A stretch of DNA of 64,000 nt. Origin: a virus (lineage: Duplodnaviria; Heunggongvirae; Uroviricota; Caudoviricetes). The stretch is from the IMG/VR virus record IMGVR_UViG_3300009515_000001. One strand, written 5' to 3'. Below, piece by piece: positions 1 through 64,000 of this stretch (position 1 is the first letter of the stretch; every line of letters begins with the position of its first letter). The translations under genes were made by a program, and so were the position numbers. Under the pieces are notes generated by a model that had not been told where the DNA came from, made no database searches, and saw only the letters and a program-made list of their open reading frames with translations.

Positions 1-2
1 TA

Positions 3-160
3 ATATTCCTAGCAGTAGCAATCGGCAGTTTGGGAGTGCTTGGATACTTTGATCCATTGACAGGTTCACCAACTGTAGGAAGCTCTCTAACATACTTTTG
101 GGGCTTTATCATATTTTTGACCTTAGTTGGAGCCTTTTTAGGAAAGAGGTTCTTCTAGAA
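3..160 (+). CDS. C-terminal fragment of a membrane protein running off the window start; ends ...GKRFF
   Basis: Frame-3 open from window edge to TAG at 158-160. Hydrophobic translation IFLAVAIGSLGVLGYF...; C-terminal RFF resembles the other basic F-ended proteins in the window. Confidence 0.3.
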
Positions 161-177
161 ACCTACGGTTATGGACC

Positions 178-420
178 ATGAAATACCAAAATAAACAACT
201 CATAGAAACATCAGTTTTATCAGTTCTATTGATATTTCTAAGCGGATCTTTTTTCATATTAATTACACCATTTTTGTATGAAAATCAGGAACAGTTAGGA
301 TCTTTGTATAATCTTTGGTTACTTTTTCCTATTTTTGTTGTAGGATCAGTATGTGTTTGGGTGATCTTTAGAGTAAGACACGCTGAAAAAATACAAAAAA
401 AGATCAACAAGTATTCTTAA
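178..420 (+). CDS. small membrane protein (2 TM)
   Basis: ORF track; hydrophobic helices, basic C-terminus. Confidence 0.45.
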   Translation: MKYQNKQLIETSVLSVLLIFLSGSFFILITPFLYENQEQLGSLYNLWLLFPIFVVGSVCVWVIFRVRHAEKIQKKINKYS

Positions 421-453
421 ATAATAAACAATTTACGTAATAAATGACAGTAC

Positions 454-1071
454 ATGGGAAAATTTAGCCTCAAAGGCCACTTTCCAATAATGGAATTTAG
501 GTTAATGAGAGGACCAATGGTTCTAATGAAGGTAGGTGATCGACAATTAGAACTACGAAAAGTTACACGCCATCAGGGAAAATACTTTAAAACAATAGAT
601 GGGATCTTTGAGTTAGACGGAGAGTATGCTTACAACTTATCAGGCCAACAACTTTTAATCTATAATTTATTTAATGCAAAACCAATATCAATAACTGGAA
701 TCGAAAGAGTTCAGCAGTTATACCGAGAAAAAAAGGCTTCATTATTAGTAAAAGAACTTGAAAGAATTAATTCAGCAGTAGAAGCTTCAAGTGAAAAACG
801 TTACCAAGATCCAATTCATGCTATGGCAGAACTTTACAAGGGAAAGCCAGACGAGTTAAACAGACAGACACAAAAATATTTGATTGATTCAAGGTTGTTT
901 GACAAAGATGATCTGAAACTACAAAATACAGCGATGATGAACGCAAGAAATGTCAACAAGGGATTATCATTAAAAGTTCCAACAATAATTCCATTATTAT
1001 TAATGTCTGTCATAGGAATTATGACAGTAGTTGTAATGTCACAGTTTAATCCTCTTCGGTGGATCAGTTGA
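454..1071 (+). CDS. hypothetical protein with C-terminal TM anchor; paralog of 1059-1925
   Basis: Shares motif G-I/V-FELD-x-E-x-Y ... Q ... IYN with the next ORF. C-terminal hydrophobic segment. Confidence 0.5.
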   Translation: MGKFSLKGHFPIMEFRLMRGPMVLMKVGDRQLELRKVTRHQGKYFKTIDGIFELDGEYAYNLSGQQLLIYNLFNAKPISITGIERVQQLYREKKASLLVKELERINSAVEASSEKRYQDPIHAMAELYKGKPDELNRQTQKYLIDSRLFDKDDLKLQNTAMMNARNVNKGLSLKVPTIIPLLLMSVIGIMTVVVMSQFNPLRWIS

Positions 1072-1925
1072 GCATATCATTAGTTGTTGATCCAAAAGTT
1101 GATTTTTCTGACTTTGGATTAATATGGTATGGCGGACCACTTGCATTAATTTTAACAGAAAAAAACCATTTCAAGCTAAGAAAAATTGAAAAGATGAGGG
1201 AGTATTTCATAAACGAGTACGGAGTTTTTGAGCTTGATTCTGAAACAGAATACCGTTATGGCAAACAACCAATCTCAATCTATAACAGTCATGGAACACG
1301 AATTCCAAGAAAGATTGTAAATCGTGTCAAAAAACATTACAGACAAGGCAAAAACATGGCAATTCGTAAAGACCTGGAAGAGATCTATCCAGAACTGAAA
1401 GCCTATAACTTCAAAAGCGTATATGAGATTTTTCAGTATTTAGTAAAATCCAGTGGTCATCAGGCAATAGATATTGATACCGAAAAATACCTACCATTTT
1501 ATCGTGCCTACAATCCAATCAGTATAAAAAGGCTAAACGAAGTATGCCAAGTTGGGCGTAAGGCAATAGATTCACTTCACCCATCATTAAAGCCACCATT
1601 TCCTGTGATTGTTGCAATTGTAGGTGGAATTCTTGGCTTGGCATTTATACAAAATGCGCCAAAATATGTGCGAGAGGCCGTTGGTTATTTTGAAAGTTTT
1701 AGTAAACCAGAACCAGTTCCACCACCACCAGCACCGGTTGAAGTGGATGTTGTATCTGTTCCAGCTACTGAAACTATTGCTGAAAATGCAACACAGGGAA
1801 TTCAAACAACAGTTGAAAATGGAGTAGAGATCATTTCAATACCAGAACCAGCAAACTTTCTGCTTAGTTTGTTAAATTACATAGATCCACTGGCGTTTTT
1901 AGGGAGTTTATTTTCTTTTTTATAA
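1059..1925 (+). CDS. hypothetical protein with TM segment; paralog of 454-1071
   Basis: Same FELD...IYN motif as the previous ORF. TM helix VIVAIVGGILGLAFI; PPPPAP linker. Confidence 0.5.
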   Translation: MDQLSISLVVDPKVDFSDFGLIWYGGPLALILTEKNHFKLRKIEKMREYFINEYGVFELDSETEYRYGKQPISIYNSHGTRIPRKIVNRVKKHYRQGKNMAIRKDLEEIYPELKAYNFKSVYEIFQYLVKSSGHQAIDIDTEKYLPFYRAYNPISIKRLNEVCQVGRKAIDSLHPSLKPPFPVIVAIVGGILGLAFIQNAPKYVREAVGYFESFSKPEPVPPPPAPVEVDVVSVPATETIAENATQGIQTTVENGVEIISIPEPANFLLSLLNYIDPLAFLGSLFSFL

Positions 1926-1931: not shown

Positions 1932-2411
1932 GTGAGTACTGGATCTATATTGGATAAAAAAAAGAAGTGGATGGTATTTGATAAATCAGTGATAACTATT
2001 GTTAGTTTTGTAATTGTATTGGGTTTTATTGGAATTGATTCAATTTCAGCATTTGGTCCAAATGATCCTGAATGTTTTGAAGTTCCAGACCAAGAAGATT
2101 GTCCAGATTTTTTTGATCAGCCATTTGATCGTTTATTTGATCCATACAATTCAGTATTCCAAGATTTCACTTATGTTGTAGTATGGGCTATTATCATCGG
2201 GATTCTATGGTTACGTGTAAGCAATACTATGATGGTTGCTGTGATCGGTGTATTGTTAGCTGCGCTATTTACAAGACCTGATCCTGCTACGGGAGCTCTA
2301 ACAGGATTTTCAGAAGAAGCACAAGTAGTAGGTTGGGGCTTGTTAATTTTGGCTGTAATAGTAGCATTATACCAGATATTAACGGTAAGAATCCACTTTC
2401 CGACCAATTGA
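1932..2411 (+). CDS. membrane protein (3-4 TM)
   Basis: ORF track, hydrophobic helices. Confidence 0.5.
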   Translation: MSTGSILDKKKKWMVFDKSVITIVSFVIVLGFIGIDSISAFGPNDPECFEVPDQEDCPDFFDQPFDRLFDPYNSVFQDFTYVVVWAIIIGILWLRVSNTMMVAVIGVLLAALFTRPDPATGALTGFSEEAQVVGWGLLILAVIVALYQILTVRIHFPTN

Positions 2412-2474: not shown

Positions 2475-2834
2475 TTGAGTGATCCCAATGGTGAAATTAG
2501 ATCTGTATTAGGTCTGATTACATCTGCAAGTGGAAGAAAACCTGAAAGGTTACTTTATCGGACTTTGGTTGGACCAAAACATCTGGCTGAAGTAGTTCAA
2601 AAAATAGAGCAGATAACTGCTGTCAAGGAAACGCTTCCTGAAAACATGCAAGACGTTGCTGATGAGGCAAAAGAAATTCTGATAAGATCATTAATTTCTA
2701 CAACATCAGTTAAAGGACACATGCTCACAATGTTGACAACCAACAAATCCGAAATCAAAGTCAATGATCCTAGAGTAAGACGTTCTGTAATGGGTGGATT
2801 GTTGAGGGAGCAGGGAGTTGGTGGCGACTATTAG
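2475..2834 (+). CDS. hypothetical protein
   Basis: ORF track; tight tandem arrangement on + strand. Confidence 0.4.
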   Translation: MSDPNGEIRSVLGLITSASGRKPERLLYRTLVGPKHLAEVVQKIEQITAVKETLPENMQDVADEAKEILIRSLISTTSVKGHMLTMLTTNKSEIKVNDPRVRRSVMGGLLREQGVGGDY

Positions 2835-3938: not shown

Positions 3939-6900
3939 TTGAAAATGGTTCGTAGAATAGCAAAGTCATCAAGATTTTCAAGATCTGTTCCATCAATAAA
4001 ACCAGTTAGAGTTGCACCAGATGTAAAAACAACAAAAAAACCAACAAGAAAAACTACACCTAAAAAAGCAACAGCGCCACCACCAAAACCATCGCCAGTA
4101 ATTTCTTTACCAACAGCACCTGCACAACCTTCAAGAGTTTCAAAGGCAAGTAGGGTTTCTGGGGCTAGAGTTATCATTCCCAGTAGAACTGTAACACCTA
4201 CACCACGACCATCACCAGTGGTTCAAAGACCAACACCAACACCAACAACTACAAAAAAACCATCACCATCAGAACCAAAAGTAGTAGTTCAGCAACCAAC
4301 TACTGTGGTGAAAACATCAATTTCACAAGATGAAAAGGGAAATATTGCAAGCTCACAATCACAAGTTGTTGAAACACCTGCGGCTGTTCAGGAAGTAAAA
4401 CAACAACCATCAGGTGTTCCATTAATACCTGGTGTTCCTGGATTAATAGGTGGTATTCCATTGGCTGCAGGTGCTATACCATTTCAAGAAACAACATCAA
4501 AAAGTCAGGCAGAAGAATCATTATTTGGATTTAAAAAACCTGAAGGTGGCGCGGCTGAATCAAGGGCAGAAGCTTTAGATTTATCAGAAAAAGTTTTGAG
4601 TGAAGAAAGAATTAAAGTTCCCACCGAAGAAGTTGTAGAAGTAATTCCAGGTGGTGAACCAACACAAGAAACTAGAACATTCATTGATCCAAATACAGGA
4701 TTATTAACAACTGAAACAGTGACTACAACACCTGGAGATATTGAAGTAACCACACAGAAAGGTGGGGAGATTGTAAAACAGCAAATTGGACAATCAGAAG
4801 TAAAACCAGACTTTTCAGATCCGCTTGGAAGTTTGGTAAGTGGCGCAAGTCAATCAGCATTAAACGAAGTGATTGGAATTAAAAATTTACCAGCAGCTGT
4901 ATCAGGTGGTGAACAAGAAGAATTATTTGCAACTCCATCAGCAATATTAGGCGAAGGATTATTTTCAGCAGTTGGTAGAGTTGGCGGACAAATATTTGAT
5001 CTAGGGCGACAGGCCGCTGGAAAACCAGAAGCAAAACCTGGTGAACAGGTTACAACATTTGGAATAGCTGGAGATAAAGTTACATTTACACAACAGGAAA
5101 GAGGACCAGATGCTTTCCAAATTCTTGAAGAATCTGGACAAAGAGCAACTAGAATAGCAGTTGCAGATCCATTATTTGCTGTTGGTGACATCGCAGTACA
5201 AGTTCCATTGTTAGTAGTTGCACCAGTTAAAGCGGCTTCAGTTGCAATCAAAGGTGTTGGAGCGGCTGGCAAAGCAATCAAAGGCGTTACAAAAGCTGGG
5301 AAAACACAAAGGTTACTTTCAATAACAGGAGAAAAAGTAACATCACCAAAGCCAAAAACACCACTTTCAAAAACATTTGAACAGGAATTCTTACAAGCTG
5401 AACAAATAAAGAAAGCACAAGCCCCACAAAAAGGACAGATTGAACAATTTGGTTCATTATCAAAGGCAGAACAAGATAAGTTATTACAGTCACAAAGATC
5501 CCAGTTTGAAGAAGCATTAAGTAAAGCACAGCAAAGACAAAAAGTAAAAAGAGATCTTGGACCATCAGAACCAACAGCAGAATTTGCACAAAGACAAAGA
5601 GATGCAAGTGAGTTTGCAAGAATTCCACAAGAAAGAATCAGCCCATCACAAATTGATCCAAATTTACAAAAAGCAATTAAAGAGTTAGAAGGTGGTGGTG
5701 ATCCAGATCTTTTCAAAGTAAGAGAAACAGGAAGATTCACATCAACTCCAATAGAACTTGGAAGAGGAACAGGAATCAGGCTAGGTGATGATCTTGGGGA
5801 TGTTGGAAGAGGTGGTGGTGCAAGACCACCAAAGCCACCAAGTGGCGGTGAACCAAGAGTTTTGGGTGGAGAAGGATCACCGTTTGGTGAATCAGGATTG
5901 CCACTAAGACCAAGTAGTTTTCCAGGTGCTGCAGAAAGAGTTTCAGAAATTGGAAAAGCACAAGGAAGAACAGGATTTACAGGAACATCATTAGATTTAG
6001 GTAGAGCAACAGGAAGGGCTTCTGAAGAAGTAAGTGCAGGACTTGAGGGATTTACATCGGAAATAATAGGATTAGGAACAGGAGTGGCTAAAAAGTCAGC
6101 TAAAGTTACAAAATCACAAATCGATAATTTATCAAAATCAGCAAAAATACCAAAAGACAGGGCAGAAAAAATATTACGAGATGCAGCTGACAAAGGTTCT
6201 GATTCAGCAGAATTTAGAACGGTTACATCACCAGAAGGGTTAAACCTAATTCAAAAACAGGCTACTAAACAAACATCGGCATTAAAACAACTTGAAGAAG
6301 CTAGAAAAGCATTACAAAAGACAAAGAGTACGCAAAAAACAGTTTCAAGTGTAGCAGATCAAAAAACACAAAAAAGGTTATCAGATTTAATTAAAAAGGA
6401 AAAACAAAAGGCAAAAACAGCAGGAAAATCAGTTAGTGCTGAAAAGGCAACACAAAACGCTTTACGAAAATTAATTGCCGCAGAAAAAGCAAAAACAGGA
6501 ACAAAGGCAATATCTTCAACAGAAGATATTCTATTCCAAAAACCTAGAAAACTAAAGGGTGTAACAGATGATGTAAGTGAAATTCAGATACGAAGGCCTG
6601 GTCAAGTTGGAATTCTAGGCGGTATAGCAACTGGTGTAGCGATAGGATCAGCAGTAGGAATTGGTTTAAATCAAGACCAAATCACACAACCAAAAATACT
6701 TGAAAACCCAAATTTATTCAATAAGCAAATTTCAAGACTGGTTAAAGATCCAACAATACAAATAGAAAAAACAGTTCAAAAACCAAAGGTAACAACCGTA
6801 CAGCAACCAATTTCAGATACAATATTTACACAACGACAAGATCAAAGATTTGCAATTTCAACATTATTCCCACAGGAAAAAATAACAAAACAACAGCAAC

Positions 6901-7211
6901 AGCAATCATTTTTCCAACAGCAAAAAGTAACGCAACCGATCCAAGAAATTACTACACAACAACAACAGTTTCTAAGACCTGGCAGATTCCGATTCCCCGA
7001 TGGTGTTGATGATGATAAAGCGGCAGAATCACGATCACAACGCAGATTCTTTAGATTATTTGACATAGCAAAAACACCGTTTGGTAGGGTTGAGGTAGGC
7101 GTAGGCGCACAGATCCAAAGTGAAAGACCGATCTTTGAGTTTGATGAAGAGTTAGAAAAGCGTGGCAGACGTAGAGAAAGAAACTTAGCAGAAGCTTTCT
7201 TCGATGTATAG
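3939..7211 (+). CDS. giant low-complexity protein (1090 aa): basic Pro/Thr-rich N-terminus, Gly/Ala-rich middle, Gln-rich C-terminus, ends AFFDV. Candidate virion or tape-measure-like structural protein
   Basis: 3.27-kb uninterrupted ORF on the dominant strand. Compositional domains read directly from the translation. Confidence 0.75.
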   Translation: MKMVRRIAKSSRFSRSVPSIKPVRVAPDVKTTKKPTRKTTPKKATAPPPKPSPVISLPTAPAQPSRVSKASRVSGARVIIPSRTVTPTPRPSPVVQRPTPTPTTTKKPSPSEPKVVVQQPTTVVKTSISQDEKGNIASSQSQVVETPAAVQEVKQQPSGVPLIPGVPGLIGGIPLAAGAIPFQETTSKSQAEESLFGFKKPEGGAAESRAEALDLSEKVLSEERIKVPTEEVVEVIPGGEPTQETRTFIDPNTGLLTTETVTTTPGDIEVTTQKGGEIVKQQIGQSEVKPDFSDPLGSLVSGASQSALNEVIGIKNLPAAVSGGEQEELFATPSAILGEGLFSAVGRVGGQIFDLGRQAAGKPEAKPGEQVTTFGIAGDKVTFTQQERGPDAFQILEESGQRATRIAVADPLFAVGDIAVQVPLLVVAPVKAASVAIKGVGAAGKAIKGVTKAGKTQRLLSITGEKVTSPKPKTPLSKTFEQEFLQAEQIKKAQAPQKGQIEQFGSLSKAEQDKLLQSQRSQFEEALSKAQQRQKVKRDLGPSEPTAEFAQRQRDASEFARIPQERISPSQIDPNLQKAIKELEGGGDPDLFKVRETGRFTSTPIELGRGTGIRLGDDLGDVGRGGGARPPKPPSGGEPRVLGGEGSPFGESGLPLRPSSFPGAAERVSEIGKAQGRTGFTGTSLDLGRATGRASEEVSAGLEGFTSEIIGLGTGVAKKSAKVTKSQIDNLSKSAKIPKDRAEKILRDAADKGSDSAEFRTVTSPEGLNLIQKQATKQTSALKQLEEARKALQKTKSTQKTVSSVADQKTQKRLSDLIKKEKQKAKTAGKSVSAEKATQNALRKLIAAEKAKTGTKAISSTEDILFQKPRKLKGVTDDVSEIQIRRPGQVGILGGIATGVAIGSAVGIGLNQDQITQPKILENPNLFNKQISRLVKDPTIQIEKTVQKPKVTTVQQPISDTIFTQRQDQRFAISTLFPQEKITKQQQQQSFFQQQKVTQPIQEITTQQQQFLRPGRFRFPDGVDDDKAAESRSQRRFFRLFDIAKTPFGRVEVGVGAQIQSERPIFEFDEELEKRGRRRERNLAEAFFDV

Positions 7212-7450: not shown

Positions 7451-7677
7451 TGAGAATATATTATGATCTAGTAGTTTGGGAAGAGATAGATCAATACGAA
7501 TTAGAGAAGCTACAAAACCGTTCACAAGAGTTTGCAAAAAGACTAAATGGTTTCGGAATACTTTCATTTAACATGAGGGCGCAACCACCACAACAACAAC
7601 AAGTACAACCAGCCGAACAACCTGTTGAAGAAGTTGAAGAAGAATCACCACAGGAAGAGGAGATAATTGATGAGTGA
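7450..7677 (+). CDS. small acidic protein (Q/E-rich tail)
   Basis: ORF; GGGAGGTGA Shine-Dalgarno 7 nt upstream of ATG. Confidence 0.45.
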   Translation: MRIYYDLVVWEEIDQYELEKLQNRSQEFAKRLNGFGILSFNMRAQPPQQQQVQPAEQPVEEVEEESPQEEEIIDE

Positions 7678-9058
7678 ATTGGTAAACGCATGGGATAACA
7701 AAAGAATTGACGACAAAACAGCGAAAAAACTTCTTAAAGAAAGGGTTCTAGAACTAACCCTTCCACCACATAATCTTAACAGGATACAAATATCCCACAT
7801 GATTAATAGATCAGTCACTACTGTTCATAGAGTACAAAGAGAATTGGTTAAAGATGGTTTACTTCAAACCACTGAAAATGGGTATCTAATACGTGCGGCA
7901 CAGCCAAAACTACTAAAGAGATTCCAAGATATATCAAAAACTGAATTTCTGAATATTCCAAGTGTGAAAAAATGGAAGCAGAAAATGGAGGCAAATGAGG
8001 TCAAAAACATACCATATTTAATATCAAATTTCTGGAAGGTATGCCAAACAATAGACGTTCACCCTGATGCCTTTCTATTGGATATGGAAGAAGTAATTCC
8101 ATTAATTGAAAAATTCAAGCTAATGTTTCGAGATGGAAAAGTATTGTATATGAAAAAAAAACATCTTGATGATCCAATAAAACAATCACAGGCAAACCCA
8201 CAACACTACATTGAAGCTGTTAGAAGTTTCATAAAAGGAAATGGAAAGGAGATACCAAAAGGAGAATTAGAAGTAAAAAGAAAACAAAACAAGCTTTATG
8301 CACAAATAAGAATAAACGATCAAGAAAGAATTCTAGGAATGAAATACATGGCAAAATTCAGTAGTGACCTTAGAGTTTTGTTTACAATTCATAATGAAAT
8401 TGGAGTTAGAGCTGATACATTGTTTAAAATGCGACCAAAGTTTGAAAAATTTACAAGAACCTTTGAAGGAATACCTTGTGAGTGGTATAAAGCATATATC
8501 TTTGAATCAAAACAAGAGAATACAAAAGGTGGTGGCGTTTATGAAAAATATATAATTACACCAAATGCAAGACTGATTGTTTCAAAACTTAAACCAGGAA
8601 AACAAATTCACAGCTACACAAATATTAAAAAAGGAAAAGATGAGTACAACCAAAAGCTAAGAGATTTCTTTGCAAGTATAGGAAAGATAAGTGATGATCC
8701 ATTTGAACAAGCTAAATATGAAAAAGGAACACAGGAATATTATCTAGTTAATGAACCAACACATGCCATGCGACATTCATGCGTTCACTGGTTAATGAGA
8801 ATTACAGGTAATAGAACCGAAGAAGTATCAAGTCTGTTTTGGGAACAGCCACAAACATTAAAGATCTATGCAAAGCAATCATTTGAAGATATGCTGGAAG
8901 ATGACACATGTTCACTATGCAATCCAGATCCAAATGACGAAAGATATAGAAGGTTCTGCACATTAAAACACGCATTGATATTCTATAATACTGATAAAAA
9001 ACAAAGAGAAGATCTTAGAAATATAAAAAATTGGGGGGATAGAAATGAAATTAAATGA
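7667..9058 (+). CDS. tyrosine recombinase / integrase with N-terminal HTH
   Basis: HTH NRSVTTVHRVQRELVKDGLL. C-terminal catalytic signature R...HAMRH...HWL...KIYAK (box II H-x-x-R plus candidate Tyr nucleophile). Confidence 0.65.
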   Translation: MMSELVNAWDNKRIDDKTAKKLLKERVLELTLPPHNLNRIQISHMINRSVTTVHRVQRELVKDGLLQTTENGYLIRAAQPKLLKRFQDISKTEFLNIPSVKKWKQKMEANEVKNIPYLISNFWKVCQTIDVHPDAFLLDMEEVIPLIEKFKLMFRDGKVLYMKKKHLDDPIKQSQANPQHYIEAVRSFIKGNGKEIPKGELEVKRKQNKLYAQIRINDQERILGMKYMAKFSSDLRVLFTIHNEIGVRADTLFKMRPKFEKFTRTFEGIPCEWYKAYIFESKQENTKGGGVYEKYIITPNARLIVSKLKPGKQIHSYTNIKKGKDEYNQKLRDFFASIGKISDDPFEQAKYEKGTQEYYLVNEPTHAMRHSCVHWLMRITGNRTEEVSSLFWEQPQTLKIYAKQSFEDMLEDDTCSLCNPDPNDERYRRFCTLKHALIFYNTDKKQREDLRNIKNWGDRNEIK

Positions 9059-10142: not shown

Positions 10143-10703
10143 TTGAGTTTACAAGAACATTTGATTAAAGTATTAGAAAAAAAACAATTACACCAAAGAA
10201 AAAGATCAAAAAAGAGTTTATCAAATGAATGGTGGACACCTGAAAAACTATACCAATACCTAACAAAGAATTGGAAAATAAAACCAAAATTAGATGTATG
10301 TGCAACCTATCAAAATTCAAAATGTGAATGGTATTTAGATAAAAAAGCAGATGCGACAAACCCTGAAACAGAATGGACAATACCAAAAAATAAAAGAGTT
10401 AATGTTTGGTGCAACCCACCTAATGAATTTACACAGGAATTACTTTATAGAGCATATATAGAATGGGCTTTATCAAATGGCAGACAAAAAATAATGATGA
10501 TCATACCAGCAAACGTACTTTCTTCACAGGGATTCAAGTATAATGTACGAATTCCTATTGATTATGGAGAGAATGTTCACTTTAGAGAGATAGAAGGTAG
10601 GCCAGAATTCTTGGAAAATGGAAAAAAACCAGATAGTTCATCAAGAAATGCCTACATTGTGATCGGTTGGGGAATAGAAGATCCATTCATACCGACATGT
10701 TAA
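10143..10703 (+). CDS. phage-type DNA N6-adenine methyltransferase (Dam_N6 / pfam05869-like)
   Basis: WWTP...DVCA...VWCNPP motifs in the family order. TTG start. Confidence 0.7.
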   Translation: MSLQEHLIKVLEKKQLHQRKRSKKSLSNEWWTPEKLYQYLTKNWKIKPKLDVCATYQNSKCEWYLDKKADATNPETEWTIPKNKRVNVWCNPPNEFTQELLYRAYIEWALSNGRQKIMMIIPANVLSSQGFKYNVRIPIDYGENVHFREIEGRPEFLENGKKPDSSSRNAYIVIGWGIEDPFIPTC

Positions 10704-10747: not shown

Positions 10748-11728
10748 ATGTCATTCTTTGGTGGAAGTCCTAGATTAGCTGATGTTGGAGATTTTTTACC
10801 AAAAAGAAAAAAGAAAAATGGTAAAAATGGAAGAAATGGCAGATCTGGTTTAGCAAATGGTCGAGGTGCCAAAGAAGCGGCTATGGGTTTTGAATCACCA
10901 GGATTTTTCAGTGGGCTTAGACAAAACGGAAATGGATCAAGAGGAATACCAAAGGCTGATCCAGTTGGTTTTGATAGAGGTTTAGAAATACCTGAATTAG
11001 GAAGTGGATTTAATTCAAGAATTGGAAACATTGGTTCAGGATTTGTAGAATCAGTAAATCCATTTAGAATTGGTTTTAGTGATGTATTAACAGGTAACGG
11101 TAGAACAGGCGAAATTATCAAAGGTAGTGGTGGATTTGTTACGCCATCTATTGGTAAAAGAAAGAGAGGCAGACCAAAGGGAAGTGGTAAAAAACAAAAA
11201 GTAGTTCAGAAAGGATTAGGAAAATCAAAGACATTAGAATTTGATACCAAAGGAGCAAAAAAATTACGAGCAGAAGCAATTCAATTAGCGAGAGAAGGAA
11301 AAACTGATGAAGCACGAGCTAAGCTTTCACAAATTCAAACTAAGAGTGTAGGTGGATTACTTAAGGAAGATATTAAATCTAAAGGTGGTAGATTAAAACA
11401 AAGTTTGGGTTTTACAGGCGATGATCAAAGAGAAGAAATTTCACTTGATGAAATTCAAGAAACAATTAGAGCAGATAGAGAACCAGGTGGACTTGGAACA
11501 AGACTAGAAGAAATAGAATTAGAAAGAGAAGTTGACGAAGAAAGTAGAGAAAGATTACAGGAAGCATTAGCAACTGAAAGAGCTAGTGAAGGTGCATTGG
11601 AAGAAGCAGTAGTTGAAGAAGTAGATGAAGAAGAAGAAAACGGATTAGATGAAGATTTGGATGAAATAGAAAAAGATGACTTTTCATTTGAAGTTGATGA
11701 ACAAGGACAAATACAAAGGAGGCGATAG
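10748..11728 (+). CDS. Gly/Lys/Arg-rich basic protein with acidic E/D tail (326 aa); candidate virion-associated protein
   Basis: ORF after promoter box; compositional bias. Confidence 0.55.
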   Translation: MSFFGGSPRLADVGDFLPKRKKKNGKNGRNGRSGLANGRGAKEAAMGFESPGFFSGLRQNGNGSRGIPKADPVGFDRGLEIPELGSGFNSRIGNIGSGFVESVNPFRIGFSDVLTGNGRTGEIIKGSGGFVTPSIGKRKRGRPKGSGKKQKVVQKGLGKSKTLEFDTKGAKKLRAEAIQLAREGKTDEARAKLSQIQTKSVGGLLKEDIKSKGGRLKQSLGFTGDDQREEISLDEIQETIRADREPGGLGTRLEEIELEREVDEESRERLQEALATERASEGALEEAVVEEVDEEEENGLDEDLDEIEKDDFSFEVDEQGQIQRRR

Positions 11729-11812
11729 TAGAATTGTCAATGGATGATATTTTTAAATTGCCAGGAACAAAGAAAAAAAAGAAAGGTAAACAGAAATTCA
11801 TAGATACACCCT

Positions 11813-12559: not shown

Positions 12560-12837
12560 TGGCTAGAAAAAACAGAACTATAACAGATGAAGAAAAAATG
12601 TTCGGAGTATTCTATGCACATAACAATAAACGAAGTAAAAAAGCAAGAGAAGTTGACAATGCCAGTACAAAAGGCGTTGATACAAATCTGGCAAAGTGGT
12701 GGGCTGAAGGTGGAAAAAGAAGTGACTGGCCTGGAATTGATACGGTTGTTAGAGTAAAGCCAAGAGGCTATACAAAAATGAAAGGAAAAAAAGCATTTGA
12801 CAATATCACAGATATAATAGGAAAGGGTGGATTTTGA
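12559..12837 (+). CDS. small basic protein, ends GKGGF
   Basis: ORF; GAGGGAT SD-like sequence upstream. Confidence 0.5.
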   Translation: MARKNRTITDEEKMFGVFYAHNNKRSKKAREVDNASTKGVDTNLAKWWAEGGKRSDWPGIDTVVRVKPRGYTKMKGKKAFDNITDIIGKGGF

Positions 12838-12842
12838 AAAAT

Positions 12843-12857: not shown

Positions 12858-12876
12858 TGTAAAGGGAGGTGTAATT

Positions 12877-59641: not shown

Positions 59642-59959
59642 TTGTCTGCTAGTTCAGCATTGATCGCCACCGCTTTCAGCCAGTTAAGAAACGCATACAT
59701 ATCCTGCATAATAAACAAGGCCGATCCATTCAACGCCACCACAATGATAATGAATATGGTTGCTATGTTGCCACCAGATTCTAGACCAGAACTGAAAGAC
59801 CTTGAAGATGAACCTAGTCGTAAAGAATTTCTAGATGATGTCGATGAAGATCTATACATGGCAGAAGCTTGGGCTTACGTTAGGAAGCTAGGGTATCTTG
59901 TAGAAGAATGTGTAGCAAAGTATGTGAGTAATATTCAATCGAGAAGGAGTATGGCATAA
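59642..59959 (+). CDS. small acidic protein; TTG start after GGGGAGGTG SD
   Basis: ORF abuts next gene; SD 13 nt upstream. Confidence 0.4.
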   Translation: MSASSALIATAFSQLRNAYISCIINKADPFNATTMIMNMVAMLPPDSRPELKDLEDEPSRKEFLDDVDEDLYMAEAWAYVRKLGYLVEECVAKYVSNIQSRRSMA

Positions 59960-61263
59960 TGGCATTAGAAGAAGTGGGTGAAGAGATAGTTGAACAGGAT
60001 ATTGAAGCTAAGATACAAGCTAAGGCAGTTGAAAAGAAGAAGGCTTTCACTGGAGTAAAGACAACTCTCTTTAAAGATCCTCGTGATGGTCAACGCTATC
60101 CAATACCTGTATCGATGTCACCAATGCCAACGGTAGATCGTATCCTAACCTATTCAGCAAGGACAGGTTTCTGTGGTATCTTGTGCATTGGAATGTCAGG
60201 CACTGGAAAGAGTACACTTGCCAGATTCTTGGTCCATCAACTGCACCAAAAGAAGAACTTTAACATTCACTGGTATGAGAGAGATGACATTCAAAGGCTG
60301 GACAAGATCATAGCCAGCTTGCAGAAGGGGTTGGACCATATCATAGTGATGGATGACGCTTCATTCAGTTTAGAACAACTGAAACGTGAGGACATTACCA
60401 AGATTGCACAGAAGCTTACCTACGTTAGACACGATGTTAGAGGACAGGTGATAGTGATAATGAATATACATTATTCTAAAGCAATTTCCAGGTTCTTTAG
60501 GAACGTTCCATTCGCTTTCCTCACTTCAATCACACAAGAAGAAGTACATACATTCCAAGATGTTTGGCCTCATGGTAGGTGGAAGTTCAAAGACTTTGCA
60601 TGGTATTACCAACAGATGATGTTCACAGATAAGTGGACATTCGATGTTGATAGGTGGGAGAACAAGACCATGACGTATAGAACAGATGATCCTTTCAGAC
60701 TTGGACTAGCTATGGAAGGGAACTACATACACTTCATAGTGTATTTAAAAGATGGTTGTACTTTATGCGATGCACAATTTGATATAAAGAAGATAGTAAA
60801 TAGTAAAGAGTTGGTTGATTACTTTGTCAAGTCATACGGATTACCTAGAGCAAGAAGTATACTGAACCTCTATGCCTTTACTAAGCATGGACAGAAGGCA
60901 TTAGATTCAAACAGACAGGCTATCTGGAATAGCATAGCAGACTTTGATAAGAACAATAAGATTAACTGGGTGAATGTTGTGCAGGAATTACGTAAGACAT
61001 TGAAGAGTAGAAGAAGAACCTATGTAAAGAAGTCTGTACTAAAAGAGAACGCAGAACAACTTGAAGATCTACCCGAAGGTGATCCTGAATTGGAACGTGT
61101 CAAGACAGAACAGGAGTTAGAACTACAAGAACAACTAGCAGACTTGGAAGAGAACCAAGACAAAGTAATACCTATGGGATATGATCCTGATACATCAAAC
61201 CCTAATCAAATGCCATACGGTGAGGAAGAAATAGACAGGCAACTTGATCAAGATAACCAATGA
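59959..61263 (+). CDS. P-loop NTPase (SF3-helicase-like or A32/FtsK-like ATPase); candidate replication or packaging protein
   Basis: Walker A GMSGTGKST, Walker B HIIVMDDAS, downstream VIVIMNIHY (motif C-like Asn). Confidence 0.6.
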   Translation: MALEEVGEEIVEQDIEAKIQAKAVEKKKAFTGVKTTLFKDPRDGQRYPIPVSMSPMPTVDRILTYSARTGFCGILCIGMSGTGKSTLARFLVHQLHQKKNFNIHWYERDDIQRLDKIIASLQKGLDHIIVMDDASFSLEQLKREDITKIAQKLTYVRHDVRGQVIVIMNIHYSKAISRFFRNVPFAFLTSITQEEVHTFQDVWPHGRWKFKDFAWYYQQMMFTDKWTFDVDRWENKTMTYRTDDPFRLGLAMEGNYIHFIVYLKDGCTLCDAQFDIKKIVNSKELVDYFVKSYGLPRARSILNLYAFTKHGQKALDSNRQAIWNSIADFDKNNKINWVNVVQELRKTLKSRRRTYVKKSVLKENAEQLEDLPEGDPELERVKTEQELELQEQLADLEENQDKVIPMGYDPDTSNPNQMPYGEEEIDRQLDQDNQ

Positions 61264-61397: not shown

Positions 61398-61487
61398 TGG
61401 CAACCAGGCGCACAATTATTTTTGTATTTTTCTGACAACAATTTTTCAGTTACGTGCCTGTAATAATTTTCAGTTATAATTTTTTAG

Positions 61488-61554
61488 TGGTTAACATATT
61501 GTTGGTTAACATATTGTTGGTTAACATATTGTTGGTTAACATATTGTTGGTTAA
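61488..61554. repeat. 4.5 tandem copies of 15-mer GGTTAACATATTGTT
   Basis: Read directly from sequence. Confidence 0.9.
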
Positions 61555-61799
61555 CTACCTAAGATTAATCTTAATTCAATCTTAGAATTTATACCTAGAT
61601 TTATTTAATAAATAAAATACCTTGATCTTTAATCTTAAATTAAGATCTGAAATTTCAGATAATCATTTTATATTAAAATCTGAAAAGCTGAAATTTTTTA
61701 AAGTCTGTAATTTACGCCTAAGCATTTTTAGATATACCCTTTTTGTATGTTCATTTAAACACACAAGTGATTTATTAATATACGTACATATTTAAAATT

Positions 61800-63026
61800 A
61801 TGAATGAGGATACCACAAGATCCAACAATAACCCAACTAATGAAAATTCATCTAATGAAAATTCAGTTTCTGAAAATTCAGATCACAAATACAATCCATC
61901 AAAAGATCACTTAGAAATTTGTGAACCATGCAGAATAGAAAAGAAAAGAAAAAATGATCTATACTATGCAAACAATAAGGATAAAGTTTTAGCTAAAAGA
62001 AAAGCTGAACGTGAACAAAAATTATCTAAGTTGAATAAAGCAATTAACGATCCAAATAAAACAACTTTAACAAAAGACGATCTACATTTAGCAAACACGA
62101 TCCCGATCCAAGAAATAGATCCACAAAACTATATGTTAAAACAAACAACTAAGTTTATTTTTCCAAAAGGATCTGAAAATCTTTTGAAAAAATATTCAAT
62201 GAAAAAAGTATCTAAAGGATTAATTTTATTTGGTCATGCTGGAAACGGTAAAACCGAGCTTCCAAAACAATGGTCTATTAAAAATAAAGTGCCTAATGTT
62301 TTTCTAAGTTGTCATAACGATATTAGATCAACCGATCTTCTTGGATCTTTTTCACTTAAAGAAGGTTCAAGCGTTTTTGTATTAGGAAAAATAATTGAAG
62401 CTATCGAGATCGCAAACAAACATAGTTCTAAACAATGTGTTTTAGTTCTTGATGAGATTAACACAATGGATAATAATGTTCAAAAGATCTTAAACACTAA
62501 TTTAGATTTCAGATCTGGAATTAATATTCCATTGGTTAACAAACAATATAGATTAAACGATGAATCAAAAATAATCGTTGTAGCTACAATGAACCCTAGT
62601 TCTTATAGTGGCACATATCCATTAAACTTAGAACTAAATTCAAGGTTCGACTTTAAAGAAATTAAAACCATGCCAGATAAATTAATTAAAGATCTTTTAA
62701 AGTCAAAAAACATCGATGAAAAAACAATCGAATCTTTATTGATTACACAAAAAGAATTATTGAAAGCTTTTGAAGCTGATAAGATACAACAACCGATCGA
62801 TCCAAGAGGATTATTAAAATTTGCAGAAGATTATAATCTAAACAAAACTGAATTTAAAATGGATCATTCAGAAGCTTTGCAAGAAGCTTTAGAATTAACT
62901 TTAGTTGGTAGATACCTAGACAATAAAGAAGATCTCAAATTTGTAAATGAAATTATAGAATCTAATTTCAGCTTTGAAGATCCAGAAGTAAACGAACAAA
63001 CAGAAAAAGAAGATAACGAACAATAG
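61800..63026 (+). CDS. AAA_5-type (MoxR/McrB-like) ATPase
   Basis: Walker A GHAGNGKTE, Walker B LVLDEINTMD, sensor VVATMNP, arginine finger SRF. Confidence 0.7.
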   Translation: MNEDTTRSNNNPTNENSSNENSVSENSDHKYNPSKDHLEICEPCRIEKKRKNDLYYANNKDKVLAKRKAEREQKLSKLNKAINDPNKTTLTKDDLHLANTIPIQEIDPQNYMLKQTTKFIFPKGSENLLKKYSMKKVSKGLILFGHAGNGKTELPKQWSIKNKVPNVFLSCHNDIRSTDLLGSFSLKEGSSVFVLGKIIEAIEIANKHSSKQCVLVLDEINTMDNNVQKILNTNLDFRSGINIPLVNKQYRLNDESKIIVVATMNPSSYSGTYPLNLELNSRFDFKEIKTMPDKLIKDLLKSKNIDEKTIESLLITQKELLKAFEADKIQQPIDPRGLLKFAEDYNLNKTEFKMDHSEALQEALELTLVGRYLDNKEDLKFVNEIIESNFSFEDPEVNEQTEKEDNEQ

Positions 63027-63038
63027 GAGATCTAAAAA

Positions 63039-64000
63039 TTGTCTATACAAAATTCCCAAAAAATCGATCCTTCTTCTGATGATTCATTAAAAGAATTTTC
63101 AGAAGAAGATCGAAAATTTGTTTTAGATTTTATTAGTATGTTTTCAGCAATTAAAAATAAACCATTAAAAATATTTTTCAATAATAATTCAGGTAAGCAT
63201 TTTATTACTTATAATAAATATGAAAAAGAATATCAGATCTATACAGATCCTTATGATGAAAAAATTTATTGGAAAACTGCGATCGAGCATGAAGTAAGCC
63301 ATTTATTATTTGATACAAAATTCGATTCATTCAAAAGATATGCTAATGAAATAATTTCTAATTGTCCTTATGAATTAAGATCAATTAGTTTCAAAAGTAT
63401 TCACACGATCTATAATGTGTTTGAAGATATGAGGATCGAATCATGGTTCGGAAAATACAAACAAGGATTTAGAAAAAGAATAATTCAAACTAGAAAATCA
63501 TTAGGAAAAGATCCGCAAATAGTAAAAGGCGATCCAGATAATCCAATTTCAGCTTTATTATATTCTAGATTTTTTAGAAACGATTTAGTAAGATTATCTA
63601 ATTTTAAAGTGTGTGAAGATTACATAAACAAATCTGAATTTATTAACCCTAAAGGATCAATTCTTTTAGTTAAAGATTTTTACGATAAAGTTTTTCTACC
63701 ATTCTTAAAAGAACAAAAAGAAAAACAAAAGGAAAAAGAAAAACAAAAAGAGAATCAAAAAAATGAAACTGAAAATTCAGATCCAAAAGGAACTGAAAAT
63801 TCAAAAGATGATTCAAATAAAAAACAATCAGAAGATCAAAAAGATAATTCAGACAATGAAGATCCAGAAGATAAAGATCCAGAAGATAAAGATCCAGACT
63901 TTAACGATTTAGATTCTGATGATTCAGATAACGATTTAGATTCTGATGATTCAGATAACGATTTAGATTCTGATGATTCAGATAACGATTTAGATTCTGA
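63039..64000 (+). CDS. partial CDS (runs off window): HExxH-motif protein with Asp/Ser-rich acidic repeat tail; possible metallopeptidase-like partner of the AAA_5 ATPase
   Basis: TTG start 63039; AIEHEVSHLL (HExxH); frame stays open to window end. Confidence 0.5.
   Translation, partial: MSIQNSQKIDPSSDDSLKEFSEEDRKFVLDFISMFSAIKNKPLKIFFNNNSGKHFITYNKYEKEYQIYTDPYDEKIYWKTAIEHEVSHLLFDTKFDSFKRYANEIISNCPYELRSISFKSIHTIYNVFEDMRIESWFGKYKQGFRKRIIQTRKSLGKDPQIVKGDPDNPISALLYSRFFRNDLVRLSNFKVCEDYINKSEFINPKGSILLVKDFYDKVFLPFLKEQKEKQKEKEKQKENQKNETENSDPKGTENSKDDSNKKQSEDQKDNSDNEDPEDKDPEDKDPDFNDLDSDDSDNDLDSDDSDNDLDSDDSDNDLDS
63906..64000. repeat. 3.5 tandem copies of 27-nt GATTTAGATTCTGATGATTCAGATAAC (encodes DLDSDDSDN repeats)
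   Basis: Read directly from sequence. Confidence 0.9.

What the first reader, a model, noticed from the sequence alone, without database searches (positions are those of the whole stretch)
1..64000. Extreme strand asymmetry and absence of recognisable capsid, terminase or host housekeeping genes
About 110 ORFs are on the + strand. Only two CDSs and the tRNA are on the minus strand.

Recognisable genes are all mobile-element-type: integrase, MTases, HNH, DUF5131, ATPases and Zn-finger proteins. Nothing matches a major capsid protein, portal or terminase by motif inspection. This suggests either a novel virus lineage, possibly spindle-shaped or pleomorphic with the basic protein module as its structural unit, or a large integrative/conjugative element.
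Basis: inference. Interest (0 to 1): 0.6.

Follow-up and report, generated by a model that had tools for sequence, protein, structure and literature searches.

The report
Large archaeal virus-like element, spindle-virus relative
The window is about two-thirds of a roughly 93 kb uncultured mobile element of marine ammonia-oxidising archaea. It lacks classical capsid and terminase genes but shares three gene families and a conserved gene order with recently proposed small spindle-shaped viruses of those archaea, which would make it an unusually large relative of them.

Summary
About 115 credible genes are on the + strand, against 2-4 genes and one tRNA on the minus strand. No HK97 capsid, double jelly-roll (DJR) capsid, portal or canonical terminase is detectable by Pfam or PHROGs.

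The "absence" is partly an artefact of the window. The window is 64 kb of a 92,862 bp metagenome contig and begins in the last 50 codons of a giant (about 2,500-3,000 aa) fibronectin-repeat gene.

The AAA+ ATPase (59959-61263) matches only the "Nitrosopumilaceae spindle-shaped virus" genomes (NYMAG-47 group, 27-38 kb) among 50,697 phage records. A secreted Cys-rich protein (28355-29806) matches one of their core families. The gene at 29827-30906 is their alpha-hairpin capsid-type protein with a roughly 280 aa beta-rich domain inserted in the loop. Relatives carry plain hairpin genes directly upstream of the giant gene, the same order as in NYMAG-47 genomes.

The closest binned relative is a Nitrosopumilaceae MAG contig. 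No conjugation genes are present.

Best reading: a large (93 to 111 kb or more) virus-like element of Nitrosopumilaceae, an enlarged relative of those putative spindle viruses. About 17-29 kb of the genome is unseen, so a hidden tailed-virus module cannot be excluded. The capsid assignment is computational.

The parts
1..158 (+). C-terminal tail (about 50 codons, membrane anchor) of a giant ORF that runs off the window start
   Evidence: The translation matches the C-termini of 2,482-2,995 aa fn3-repeat ORFs in relatives L006, L008, L009 and L005.
178..420 (+). 80 aa protein with two hydrophobic helices (hairpin-like), directly after the giant gene
   Evidence: Sequence inspection. No significant profile match to NYMAG capsid proteins.
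454..1925 (+). Two paralogous proteins (454-1071 and 1059-1925), each C-terminally membrane-anchored
   Evidence: Reciprocal 23-28% identity; conserved at 60-81% in relatives L004-L010. No family hit.
1932..2411 (+). Multi-pass membrane protein of the module downstream of the giant gene
   Evidence: Its homologue in the 61.6 kb IMG/VR relative (32% identity, E 3e-22) sits in the same position after that contig's giant ORF.
2475..2834 (+). Most conserved small protein of the clade (119 aa, all-alpha), function unknown
   Evidence: 82-93% identity in relatives. AF2 single-sequence model pLDDT 62.9, six helices. No PDB fold match below E 0.7.
3939..7211 (+). 1,090 aa low-complexity, Pro/Thr/Gln-rich protein ending in FFDV
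   Evidence: 45-50% identity over about 970 aa in L004 and L005. No family hit.
7667..9058 (+). 463 aa protein with an N-terminal winged helix; candidate tyrosine recombinase
   Evidence: Weak HTH hits only and no PDB hit. The R..HAMRH..W..Y pattern is seen by eye. 76-80% identity in relatives.
10143..10703 (+). Dam-type N6-adenine DNA methyltransferase
   Evidence: PF05869 E 1.5e-11; phrog_111.
10748..18645 (+). Block of basic, Gly/Lys/Arg-rich, mostly disordered proteins, including the 718 aa coiled-coil protein at 14577-16733; several end in F-x-(D/G)-F motifs
   Evidence: Composition and C-termini. No family hits. 10748-11728 is conserved in L004 and L005.
19915..20586 (+). HNH endonuclease
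   Evidence: phrog_10822 E 5.7e-07.
24501..25427 (+). C5 cytosine DNA methyltransferase
   Evidence: PF00145 E 2.3e-43.
26102..26176 (-). tRNA-Pro (UGG)
   Evidence: ARAGORN and Rfam, 56.2 bits.
26177..26916 (.). 740 nt ORF-poor, strongly structured stretch next to the tRNA
   Evidence: MFE z-score -6.6 on the + strand and -4.3 on the - strand against 20 shuffles. No Rfam family.
28355..29806 (+). 483 aa secreted or anchored Cys-rich acidic protein, homologous to a core protein family of NYMAG-47-type viruses
   Evidence: hhalign probability 96.9%, E 1.7e-10 over 164 columns against L175 23422-24429 and its family. Also present in the Nitrosopumilaceae MAG contig L012 and in L180.
29827..30906 (+). 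Alpha-hairpin capsid-type protein with a roughly 280 aa beta-rich domain inserted in the hairpin loop
   Evidence: Its N- and C-termini are 82% and 65-91% identical to the 76 aa hairpin protein of L009. Hairpin profile against the NYMAG MCP profile: probability 67-75%, E 3-5e-5, score 29.2 against 11.9 +/- 2.75 for 150 column shuffles. The AF2 model has terminal helices 2-37 and 321-355 at pLDDT 74-81.
31092..31712 (-). The one clear minus-strand protein gene (206 aa)
   Evidence: Coding score 0.24, within the range of + genes. Weak DUF5615 hit, E 7e-4.
31805..33654 (+). SPFH/Band 7 protein plus the adjacent membrane protein
   Evidence: PF01145 E 2.2e-36; phrog_200 and phrog_944.
40031..40759 (+). 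DUF5131 (phage Gp37/Gp68 family)
   Evidence: PF07505 E 5.3e-75.
44738..45527 (+). C5 methyltransferase split over two reading frames (motifs I-VIII in one frame, IX-X in the +1 frame)
   Evidence: Translations. The same split occurs in L001, L002 and L171, with in-frame indels only.
45807..46262 (+). Small N6/N4-type DNA methyltransferase
   Evidence: phrog_11619 E 3e-32. 83-89% identity in relatives.
47155..48912 (+). HerA/FtsK-type ATPase with two C-terminal winged-helix domains; an accessory gene
   Evidence: PF01935, PF14947 and PF05707. phrog_2666, P-loop part only. Missing at the syntenic site in L169 and L171. 35-47% homologues lie in bacterial prophage accessory regions.
48947..51076 (+). 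N4/N6 DNA methyltransferase with large insertions
   Evidence: PF01555 E 4.7e-39.
52150..52893 (+). Stand-alone CDC48 N-terminal double-domain protein
   Evidence: PF02359 E 1.6e-18 and PF02933 E 8.5e-13.
59642..61263 (+). Conserved 105 aa protein plus the AAA+ ATPase that marks this group of elements; candidate replication initiator
   Evidence: tblastn hits only the nine Nitrosopumilaceae spindle-shaped virus records. hhalign probability 99.8%, E 4e-29. The family has only 271 clusters among 1.84 billion representatives.
61488..61555 (.). Perfect 15 nt x 4.5 tandem repeat (TGGTTAACATATTGT) in the 536 nt gap after the AAA+ gene; candidate iterons or origin
   Evidence: TRF score 136, 100% matches; palindrome at 61628-61677.
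61800..63026 (+). MoxR/CobS-like AAA_5 ATPase
   Evidence: PF07728 E 1.3e-17; phrog_249.
63036..64000 (+). Partner ORF with an HExxH motif and acidic perfect 27 nt tandem repeats; runs off the window end
   Evidence: Translation and TRF. The homologue is 751 aa in L171. The contigs behind L169 and L187 end inside this gene, about 0.9-1.1 kb in.

Best explanation
The window is about two-thirds of the genome of a large (>=93 kb; relatives 75-111 kb) double-stranded DNA virus-like element of marine-sediment Nitrosopumilaceae (ammonia-oxidising archaea). It is an enlarged, distant relative of the putative 'Nitrosopumilaceae spindle-shaped viruses' (NYMAG-47 group, 27-38 kb).

Shown here:
- It shares with that group the marker AAA+ ATPase, a secreted Cys-rich core protein and, at moderate confidence, the alpha-hairpin capsid-type protein.
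- Its relatives carry two plain hairpin genes immediately upstream of a giant fn3 surface-protein gene, as NYMAG-47 genomes do.
- The window starts at the last 50 codons of that giant gene.

Inferred:
- The virion is built from small hydrophobic alpha-hairpin proteins, as in spindle-shaped archaeal viruses, and not from HK97 or double jelly-roll capsids.
- The giant fn3 protein, and the hairpin protein carrying an inserted beta-rich domain (29827-30906), decorate the particle surface and mediate adsorption.
- The basic disordered proteins at 10.7-18.6 kb condense the DNA.
- The AAA+ ATPase, with the adjacent 15 nt iterons, starts replication.
- The five methyltransferases, the HNH endonuclease and DUF5131 protect the genome from host restriction.
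- The recombinase-like gene allows integration.
- The one-directional gene layout reflects co-oriented transcription from many archaeal TATA-type promoters placed 25-35 nt before start codons.
For: Source and relatives:
- The ATPase and AAA_5 proteins are 100% identical to proteins from one 92,862 bp JGI contig.
- Syntenic relatives sit on contigs of 75,340, 86,932, 95,078 and 110,958 bp with no housekeeping genes in the parts seen.

Link to the NYMAG-47 group:
- AAA+ ATPase: the only hits among 50,697 phage records are nine BK0677xx genomes. Profile-profile probability is 99.8%, E 4e-29. The family is small and specific.
- 28355-29806 matches NYMAG core family f4 at probability 96.9%, E 1.7e-10.
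- Hairpin against NYMAG MCP: E 3-5e-5. None of 150 shuffles reached the real score, and cross-controls were low.
- The order hairpin, hairpin, giant ORF is seen in L175 and L176 and in relatives L009 and L172.
- A 61.6 kb IMG/VR contig bridges the two groups.

Host:
- The best genome hit is a Nitrosopumilaceae MAG contig with 9 shared proteins and 32% GC.
- A relative carries an archaeal PriL primase. The window encodes a CDC48-N protein and has TATA-like boxes before start codons.

Negative results:
- No capsid, portal or TerL, and no conjugation genes, by Pfam or PHROGs.
Against: - No particle has ever been seen for this element or for the NYMAG-47 group. That group's capsid assignment is itself a structural prediction (PMC10866085).
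- The hairpin match covers only about 30 columns of a transmembrane helix plus a Cys. It would be borderline if corrected for all 1,536 profile comparisons. Two-helix membrane proteins could also be holins or ordinary membrane proteins.
- The second hairpin family shows no significant similarity to the NYMAG ORF6 family.
- Only 3 of the 12 NYMAG core families compared by profile have detectable counterparts (the 13th, the giant ORF, was left out).
- About 17-29 kb of the source genome was never seen and could hold other structural genes.
- No replication polymerase or helicase was found in the window.
- AF2 models were made without alignments and are weak.
- Host assignment rests on MAG binning, composition and homology. 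No CRISPR spacer evidence was obtained.
Confidence: 0.55

Rival explanations
1. A head-tailed archaeal virus (Caudoviricetes) whose HK97 capsid, portal, terminase and tail genes lie in the 17-29 kb of the genome outside the window. Under this reading the giant fn3 protein is a tail fibre and the hairpin proteins are holin-like.
For: The window is only 64 of 92.9 kb or more. Giant fn3 proteins and CobS-like ATPases occur in tailed viruses. One fn3 homologue is labelled 'predicted phage tail protein' by its source. HerA-ATPase and DUF5131 homologues sit in bacterial tailed prophages.
Against: None of about 100 kb of clade sequence inspected (the window plus the flanks in L001, L002, L004-L010, L169 and L171) shows a tailed-virus hallmark in Pfam or PHROGs. 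No close relative is in IMG/VR, which recruits on such hallmarks. The specific homologies are to complete 27-38 kb genomes that their authors describe as morphologically unrelated to Caudoviricetes, although only their putative capsid protein was analysed there (PMC10866085).
Confidence: 0.12
2. A non-viral extrachromosomal or integrative element (a large plasmid or 'cryptic integrated element') of Nitrosopumilaceae. It would share an SSV-type AAA+ replication ATPase and some membrane proteins with viruses, but make no virions.
For: AAA+ ATPases of this kind are shared between archaeal viruses and plasmids. Thaumarchaeal cryptic elements reach 98 kb and lack signature genes (PMC6563490). The window has a candidate recombinase and many defence or anti-defence type genes. 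No virion protein is experimentally supported.
Against: The conserved module of hairpin genes plus a giant surface protein is shared with elements recovered from viromes and IMG/VR (PMC10866085). No conjugation or partition genes were detected.
Confidence: 0.25
3. A membrane-containing icosahedral (double jelly-roll) virus that packages DNA with the HerA/FtsK-type ATPase at 47155-48912.
For: The HerA/FtsK-type ATPase hits a PHROG annotated as a packaging enzyme (E 1.5e-18) and Zot-like families. Such ATPases are the packaging motors of DJR viruses (PMC6563490).
Against: No DJR capsid candidate lies next to it; the neighbours are methyltransferases and a Zn-finger protein. The gene is missing at the syntenic site in L169 and L171. 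In bacteria it lies in accessory regions next to DUF5131 and an integrase. DJR capsid families were not hit.
Confidence: 0.04
4. An ordinary chromosomal island of a small-genome (DPANN-type) archaeon rich in giant surface proteins.
For: Giant fn3 and LamG surface proteins are typical of DPANN archaea. More distant ATPase homologues (43-47% identity) are binned with Woesearchaeota, Iainarchaeum, Parvarchaeota and Micrarchaeia MAGs.
Against: There is no housekeeping gene in 64 kb or in the relatives' flanks. Strand bias is near total. The closest relative (64% identity, 9 shared genes) is in a Nitrosopumilaceae bin. The specific homologies are to viral genomes.
Confidence: 0.04

Closest known systems
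Putative 'Nitrosopumilaceae spindle-shaped viruses' (NYMAG-47 and relatives; GenBank BK067782-BK067792; PMC10866085)
   Same: They share the marker AAA+ ATPase (23-30% identity, profile E 4e-29), a core secreted protein family (E 1.7e-10), an alpha-hairpin capsid-type protein with a conserved Cys pair at the loop base (profile E about 4e-5), and the gene order hairpin, hairpin, giant ORF. They also share low GC, several methyltransferases and a predicted Nitrosopumilaceae host.
   Different: The genome here is about 3 times larger (>=93 kb against 27-38 kb). Nearly all genes are on one strand, whereas NYMAG genomes have two divergent blocks. No D5-like primase-helicase is seen in the window, while L175 ORF20 has one. 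Extra modules are present: the block of basic disordered proteins, SPFH, CDC48-N, the MoxR/CobS-like pair, the HerA ATPase, DUF5131 and a tRNA. One hairpin protein carries a large inserted domain. Only 3 of the 12 NYMAG core families compared by profile are detectable.
IMG/VR contig IMGVR_UViG_3300024517_000020 (61,587 bp, unclassified)
   Same: It has the AAA+ ATPase (31-34% identity), an f4-like protein, the tail of a giant repeat protein followed by a homologue of window 1932-2411, and 35% GC.
   Different: It shares many more genes with the NYMAG group than with the window. It is smaller. Only about 25 kb of it was read here.
Spindle-shaped archaeal viruses in general (Fuselloviridae, Thaspiviridae, Halspiviridae, Bicaudaviridae and large tailed spindles such as STSV and SMV1)
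   Same: It would work in the same way: small hydrophobic alpha-hairpin capsid proteins, a large terminal or adhesion protein, a conserved AAA+ ATPase, a tyrosine-recombinase-type integrase, and basic DNA-binding virion proteins. A MoxR-type ATPase with a partner protein is also a feature of Acidianus two-tailed virus (from my own knowledge, not tested here).
   Different: No sequence-level match was found to any solved spindle-virus capsid protein. The host is mesophilic and lives in marine sediment. The genome would exceed the largest spindle-virus genomes I know of (about 76 kb, from memory). No protein-primed polymerase was seen.
Thaumarchaeal cryptic integrated elements and ICEs (Krupovic et al. 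2019, PMC6563490)
   Same: Same host phylum, sizes up to 98 kb, dominated by ORFans, integrase-like genes, methyltransferases, and integration often at tRNA genes.
   Different: No VirB4/VirD4 conjugation set was detected. No evidence of integration or att sites was found here. The homologies found are to virome-derived genomes.

Membership tests
NYMAG-47-type proposed family of Nitrosopumilaceae spindle-shaped viruses (criteria stated in PMC10866085: shared Zn-binding protein, three proteins of unknown function, MCP, ATPase) | Core AAA+ ATPase | tested here: met
   tblastn E 1e-14 and lower, to nine members only. hhalign probability 99.8%, E 4e-29.
NYMAG-47-type proposed family of Nitrosopumilaceae spindle-shaped viruses | 89 aa alpha-hairpin major capsid protein | tested here: inconclusive
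   Window 29827-30906 and the plain 76-79 aa versions in L009 and L172 match the MCP profile at probability 67-75%, E 3-5e-5. None of 150 shuffles reached the real score. The aligned region is only about 30 columns, and the window copy carries a roughly 280 aa insertion.
NYMAG-47-type proposed family of Nitrosopumilaceae spindle-shaped viruses | Three conserved proteins of unknown function | tested here: not met
   Only one NYMAG core family (f4, L175 23422-24429) has a counterpart (28355-29806, E 1.7e-10). The other core families gave E >= 3e-4, not significant after 1,536 comparisons.
NYMAG-47-type proposed family of Nitrosopumilaceae spindle-shaped viruses | Conserved Zn-binding-domain protein | tested here: inconclusive
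   Several window Zn-ribbon proteins give only weak matches (E 0.004-0.015) to NYMAG family f10, the gene preceding the ATPase.
NYMAG-47-type proposed family of Nitrosopumilaceae spindle-shaped viruses | Genome of about 27-38 kb | tested here: not met
   The source contig is 92,862 bp. Relatives are 75-111 kb.
Caudoviricetes (head-tailed viruses) | HK97-fold major capsid protein, portal and large terminase | tested here: not met
   No Pfam or PHROG hit in any window ORF >=60 aa, nor in relatives' flanks. The only weak hit is Phage_portal at E 0.097, 12 bits. The 17-29 kb outside the window could not be tested.
DJR-capsid viruses (PRD1, STIV and relatives) | Double jelly-roll capsid gene next to an FtsK/HerA packaging ATPase | tested here: not met
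   A HerA-type ATPase is present. No DJR family was hit, its neighbours are methyltransferases, and the ATPase is absent at the syntenic site in L169 and L171. No structure-level test of the neighbours was possible.
Thaumarchaeal integrative-conjugative elements (PMC6563490) | [quoted passage not shown] | tested here: not met
   None of these families was hit in the window.
Integrated provirus or integrative element | Tyrosine recombinase plus att repeats flanked by host genes | tested here: inconclusive
   7667-9058 has a recombinase-like motif by eye but no HMM or PDB support. No flanking host DNA or att repeats were seen in the window. The contig ends are not available.

The most novel reading that the evidence does not exclude
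This is the first glimpse of a clade of very large (93 to over 110 kb) hairpin-capsid (spindle-type) viruses of mesophilic ammonia-oxidising archaea. It would be larger than any spindle-shaped virus genome I know of. Its capsid-type protein would have acquired a lectin-like surface domain in the exposed loop, it would carry a roughly 3,000 aa fn3 adhesin, and a dedicated set of basic disordered proteins with a shared C-terminal aromatic motif would package the DNA.
Probability: 0.35. Interest if true: 0.75.

Novelty: new variant of a known kind. Interest (0 to 1): 0.55.

Why it matters
Ammonia-oxidising archaea drive marine nitrification, yet few of their viruses are known and most detection pipelines depend on HK97, DJR or terminase hallmarks. 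This element and its relatives come from at least eight different metagenome or sequencing-run records, several of them marine or deep-subsurface sediment. No close relative (over 35% identity in either ATPase) is in IMG/VR, so this kind of element escapes standard virus mining.

If it is a virus, three things follow:
- It extends the genome-size range of hairpin-capsid archaeal viruses roughly three-fold within one related group.
- It offers a natural example of a capsid protein decorated by domain insertion.
- It provides a small, specific marker (the AAA+ ATPase family, about 270 clusters at 50% identity) for finding more such elements.

If it is a plasmid, it documents gene sharing between thaumarchaeal plasmids and viruses.

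Tried and rejected
**Searches that found nothing or could not be completed**
- Megablast of 24 kb against 50,697 phage records: no match.
- Exact 50-mer and single-protein scans of IMG/VR: nothing.
- Retrieval of the source contig by exact protein look-up failed twice. The missing about 29 kb could therefore not be read.
- The third homology search, using the giant ORF's C-terminus, was swamped by generic fn3 proteins. It returned only one true relative, on a 1.8 kb contig, so I could not walk upstream.
- A test for a circular junction (L009, L006 and L008 upstream regions against the ends of L171, L169 and the window): no match.

**The HerA ATPase as a hallmark gene: rejected**
- The family is huge (more than 2,866 hits) and spans bacteria and archaea.
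- It lies in prophage accessory regions.
- It is missing at the syntenic site in two close relatives.

**Structure and remote-homology attempts**
- Relaxed Pfam on 10 key ORFs: nothing significant. My by-eye calls of LamG (29827-30906) and TerD (36549-38540) domains were not confirmed.
- AF2 without alignments: 29827-30906 gave pLDDT 41.7, usable only for the two terminal helices. 2475-2834 gave pLDDT 62.9 with no PDB fold match.
- The hairpin-B family against NYMAG ORF6: not significant.
- Hairpin profiles against PDB sequences: nothing.
- 14577-16733 is coiled-coil and low-complexity, not a capsid-fold candidate.

**Other**
- Rfam on the structured 26.2-26.9 kb region: no family.
- A DPANN host was considered because one homologue is named Woesearchaeota. 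It was rejected in favour of Nitrosopumilaceae, which has the closest and multi-gene match.

Full report
**1. The observation**

The window is AT-rich (about 33% GC). GC skew is positive in all 32 consecutive 2 kb windows and AT skew in 31 of 32.

A greedy non-overlapping ORF set gives 117 ORFs on the + strand and 27 on the - strand, with 93% coding density. A codon-usage score trained on long + ORFs shows that nearly all minus ORFs score like antisense shadows. Only 31092-31712 (206 aa), 21372-21590 and perhaps 22411-22632 look coding. The single tRNA, tRNA-Pro(UGG), lies on the minus strand at 26102-26176.

I ran all ORFs of at least 60 aa against Pfam and PHROGs, concatenated into packs. 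The hits were:
- five DNA methyltransferases, an HNH endonuclease and DUF5131;
- a HerA/DUF87 ATPase with winged-helix domains;
- an AAA+ ATPase and a MoxR/CobS-like AAA_5 ATPase;
- an SPFH protein with a membrane partner, and a stand-alone CDC48 N-domain protein.

There is no HK97 capsid, DJR capsid, portal or canonical terminase, and no housekeeping gene. The one 'terminase large subunit' label (phrog_2666, E 1.5e-18) belongs to the P-loop region of the HerA-type ATPase. The 'integrase' at 7667-9058 has only a motif-level resemblance to tyrosine recombinases.

**2. Where the window comes from**

The HerA ATPase and the AAA_5 ATPase are each 100% identical to proteins recorded on a single 92,862 bp JGI contig. 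I could not retrieve that contig. The window is therefore about 69% of a longer sequence.

Syntenic relatives (66-89% protein identity) lie on metagenome contigs of 75,340, 86,932, 95,078 and 110,958 bp, and on marine and deep-subsurface sediment contigs.

Several of these contigs break at the same places:
- the iteron-containing gap after the AAA+ gene (the 86,932 bp contig behind L002);
- inside the AAA_5 gene (the 75,340 bp contig behind L001);
- about 0.9-1.1 kb into the acidic-repeat gene after AAA_5 (L169 and L187), which carries perfect 27 nt tandem repeats in the window.

These are assembly breakpoints, not proven genome ends.

Upstream of the window-start equivalent, every relative has a giant ORF of 2,482-2,995 aa with fibronectin type III repeats. 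Window positions 1-158 encode its last 50 or so codons.

**3. The HerA ATPase is not a hallmark**

Its family is enormous. It occurs at 35-47% identity in many bacterial phyla and in DPANN MAGs, and in 30-70 kb IMG/VR contigs, often next to DUF5131. In Rhodanobacter it lies between a reverse transcriptase and DUF5131 plus an integrase, next to pheT. It is missing at the syntenic position in two close relatives. It is an accessory gene, so it is not evidence of a packaging motor.

The same scan did give the best host clue. The closest genome hit (64% identity, nine shared proteins, 32% GC) is a contig binned with a Nitrosopumilaceae MAG.

**4. The link to putative spindle-shaped viruses**

*The AAA+ ATPase.* The protein at 59959-61263 finds, among 50,697 phage records, only nine 'Nitrosopumilaceae spindle-shaped virus' genomes (BK067782-92). 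These are the NYMAG-47 group, described in PMC10866085 as complete 27-38 kb genomes. Their 89 aa alpha-hairpin protein was proposed as a spindle-type capsid protein by structure prediction. The ATPase family is small and specific: 271 clusters at E <= 1e-3 and 52 at E <= 1e-30 among 1.84 billion representatives.

*Profile comparison of core families.* I compared profiles of 12 NYMAG core families with 128 window protein families, 1,536 comparisons in all. Two matches are unambiguous:
- the ATPase (probability 99.8%, E 4e-29);
- window 28355-29806 against core family f4 (probability 96.9%, E 1.7e-10).

*Gene order.* In NYMAG genomes, two hairpin genes lie immediately upstream of a giant ORF of 2,300-2,900 aa. 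Relatives of the window have the same order:
- L009 has a 76 aa hairpin, then 104 aa and 83 aa hairpins, then the giant fn3 ORF.
- L172, on a 36 kb contig, has a 79 aa hairpin and an 81 aa hairpin, then a giant fn3 ORF, with basic proteins in between.

*The hairpin protein in the window.* The 359 aa protein at 29827-30906 has the N- and C-terminal helices of the 76 aa hairpin (82% and 65-91% identity), separated by a roughly 280 aa beta-rich insertion. A single-sequence AF2 model is confident only for those two helices.

The insertion-free hairpin profile matches the NYMAG capsid profile at probability 67-75%, E 3-5e-5. The score is 29.2, against 11.9 +/- 2.75 for 150 within-segment column shuffles, none of which reached the real score. 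The reversed profile scored 19.7 and cross-family controls 12-15. Both families have a Cys pair at the base of the loop.

The second hairpin family is not significantly similar to NYMAG ORF6.

*A bridging relative.* A 61.6 kb IMG/VR contig bridges the groups. It has the ATPase, f4, f6, the tail of a giant ORF, and a homologue of window 1932-2411 in the same relative position.

**5. Interpretation**

The most economical reading is a large virus-like element of Nitrosopumilaceae that belongs to the wider kinship of the NYMAG-47 group but is about three times bigger.

The archaeal nature is supported by:
- a PriL primase in relative L172;
- the CDC48-N protein;
- TATA-like boxes 25-35 nt upstream of many start codons.

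A candidate replication origin is the perfect 15 nt x 4.5 iteron array at 61488-61555, next to the AAA+ gene.

The following roles are inferences, not results: hairpin proteins as capsid, the giant fn3 protein and the domain-bearing hairpin as adsorption devices, basic proteins as DNA condensers, and methyltransferases as anti-restriction.

**6. Rivals**

A tailed virus with its structural module in the unseen 17-29 kb cannot be excluded. It is disfavoured because none of about 100 kb of clade sequence shows a hallmark, and because no close relative of this clade is in IMG/VR.

A non-viral plasmid or cryptic element remains a serious alternative. No particle evidence exists, even for the NYMAG group. 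Thaumarchaeal cryptic elements reach 98 kb (PMC6563490).

An ICE is not supported, since no VirB4/VirD4 set is present. A DJR virus and a chromosomal island are both unlikely.

**7. Novelty and score**

The kind of element, putative hairpin-capsid viruses of Nitrosopumilaceae, was proposed in 2024. This clade differs in several respects:
- genome size;
- strictly one-directional gene layout;
- a domain-inserted hairpin protein;
- a block of basic disordered proteins with a shared C-terminal aromatic motif;
- additional modules.

It fails the proposed family's membership criteria apart from the ATPase and, tentatively, the capsid protein. I rate it a new variant of a known kind, with interest 0.55. 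All structural claims are computational and a third of the genome is unseen.

Noticed in passing
window 26177-26916: A 740 nt ORF-poor stretch directly beside the tRNA-Pro gene folds far more stably than shuffled sequence (z -6.6 on the + strand, -4.3 on the - strand, 20 shuffles). It matches no Rfam family. It could be a structured RNA, an att site or an origin region. No relative covers it, so covariation could not be tested.
   Followed up: partly
window 61488-61555 (and the palindrome at 61628-61677): A perfect 15 nt x 4.5 tandem repeat, TGGTTAACATATTGT, lies in the 536 nt gap between the AAA+ and AAA_5 genes. It looks like iterons of a replication origin. One relative's contig (86,932 bp) ends in this gap.
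   Followed up: partly
window 44738-45527; L001 about 5965-6750; L002 about 6899-7685; L171 1-192: A C5 cytosine methyltransferase is split between two reading frames. Motifs I-VIII are in one frame, which ends at a stop near 45376. Motifs IX-X are in the +1 frame. The split is conserved in four elements from different metagenomes, with only in-frame indels. It is therefore either a two-subunit enzyme or a programmed frameshift, not a sequencing error.
   Followed up: partly
window 3627-18409: Eight basic or disordered proteins end in a similar aromatic C-terminal motif (FFDF, FFDV, FEGF, KGGF, FGGFL, SGFF, GKGIF). This suggests a shared docking signal for a common partner.
   Followed up: no
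window 63859-64000: The ORF after the MoxR/CobS-like ATPase has an HExxH motif, followed by perfect 15 nt and 27 nt tandem repeats encoding acidic DSDDSDNDL units. The contigs behind L169 and L187 end about 0.9-1.1 kb into this gene, so the repeats break short-read assemblies.
   Followed up: partly
window 52150-52188 and 53063-53101: The first 39 nt of the CDC48 N-domain gene, including its start codon, are duplicated at 92% identity about 900 nt downstream.
   Followed up: no
window 47155-48912; loci L013-L168: The HerA/DUF87 ATPase with two winged-helix domains belongs to a very large family spread across bacterial and archaeal phyla. It is frequently found within 10 kb of DUF5131, in prophage-like accessory regions. 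Its function appears to be uncharacterised.
   Followed up: partly
window 36549-38540: The C-terminal part of this 663 aa protein contains DLDLS...GKVGWD...FSGDITDAPNG motifs that recall TerD-type calcium-binding domains. Pfam did not confirm this.
   Followed up: partly
L172 (JGI Ga0452207_004157, 36,135 bp): A smaller, more distant relative carries the AAA+ ATPase, an archaeal PriL-like primase, the HerA ATPase, a 1,375 aa LamG/Ig-like protein, basic proteins interleaved with hairpin genes, and a giant fn3 ORF of at least 1,633 aa. The clade therefore spans 36 kb to 111 kb.
   Followed up: partly
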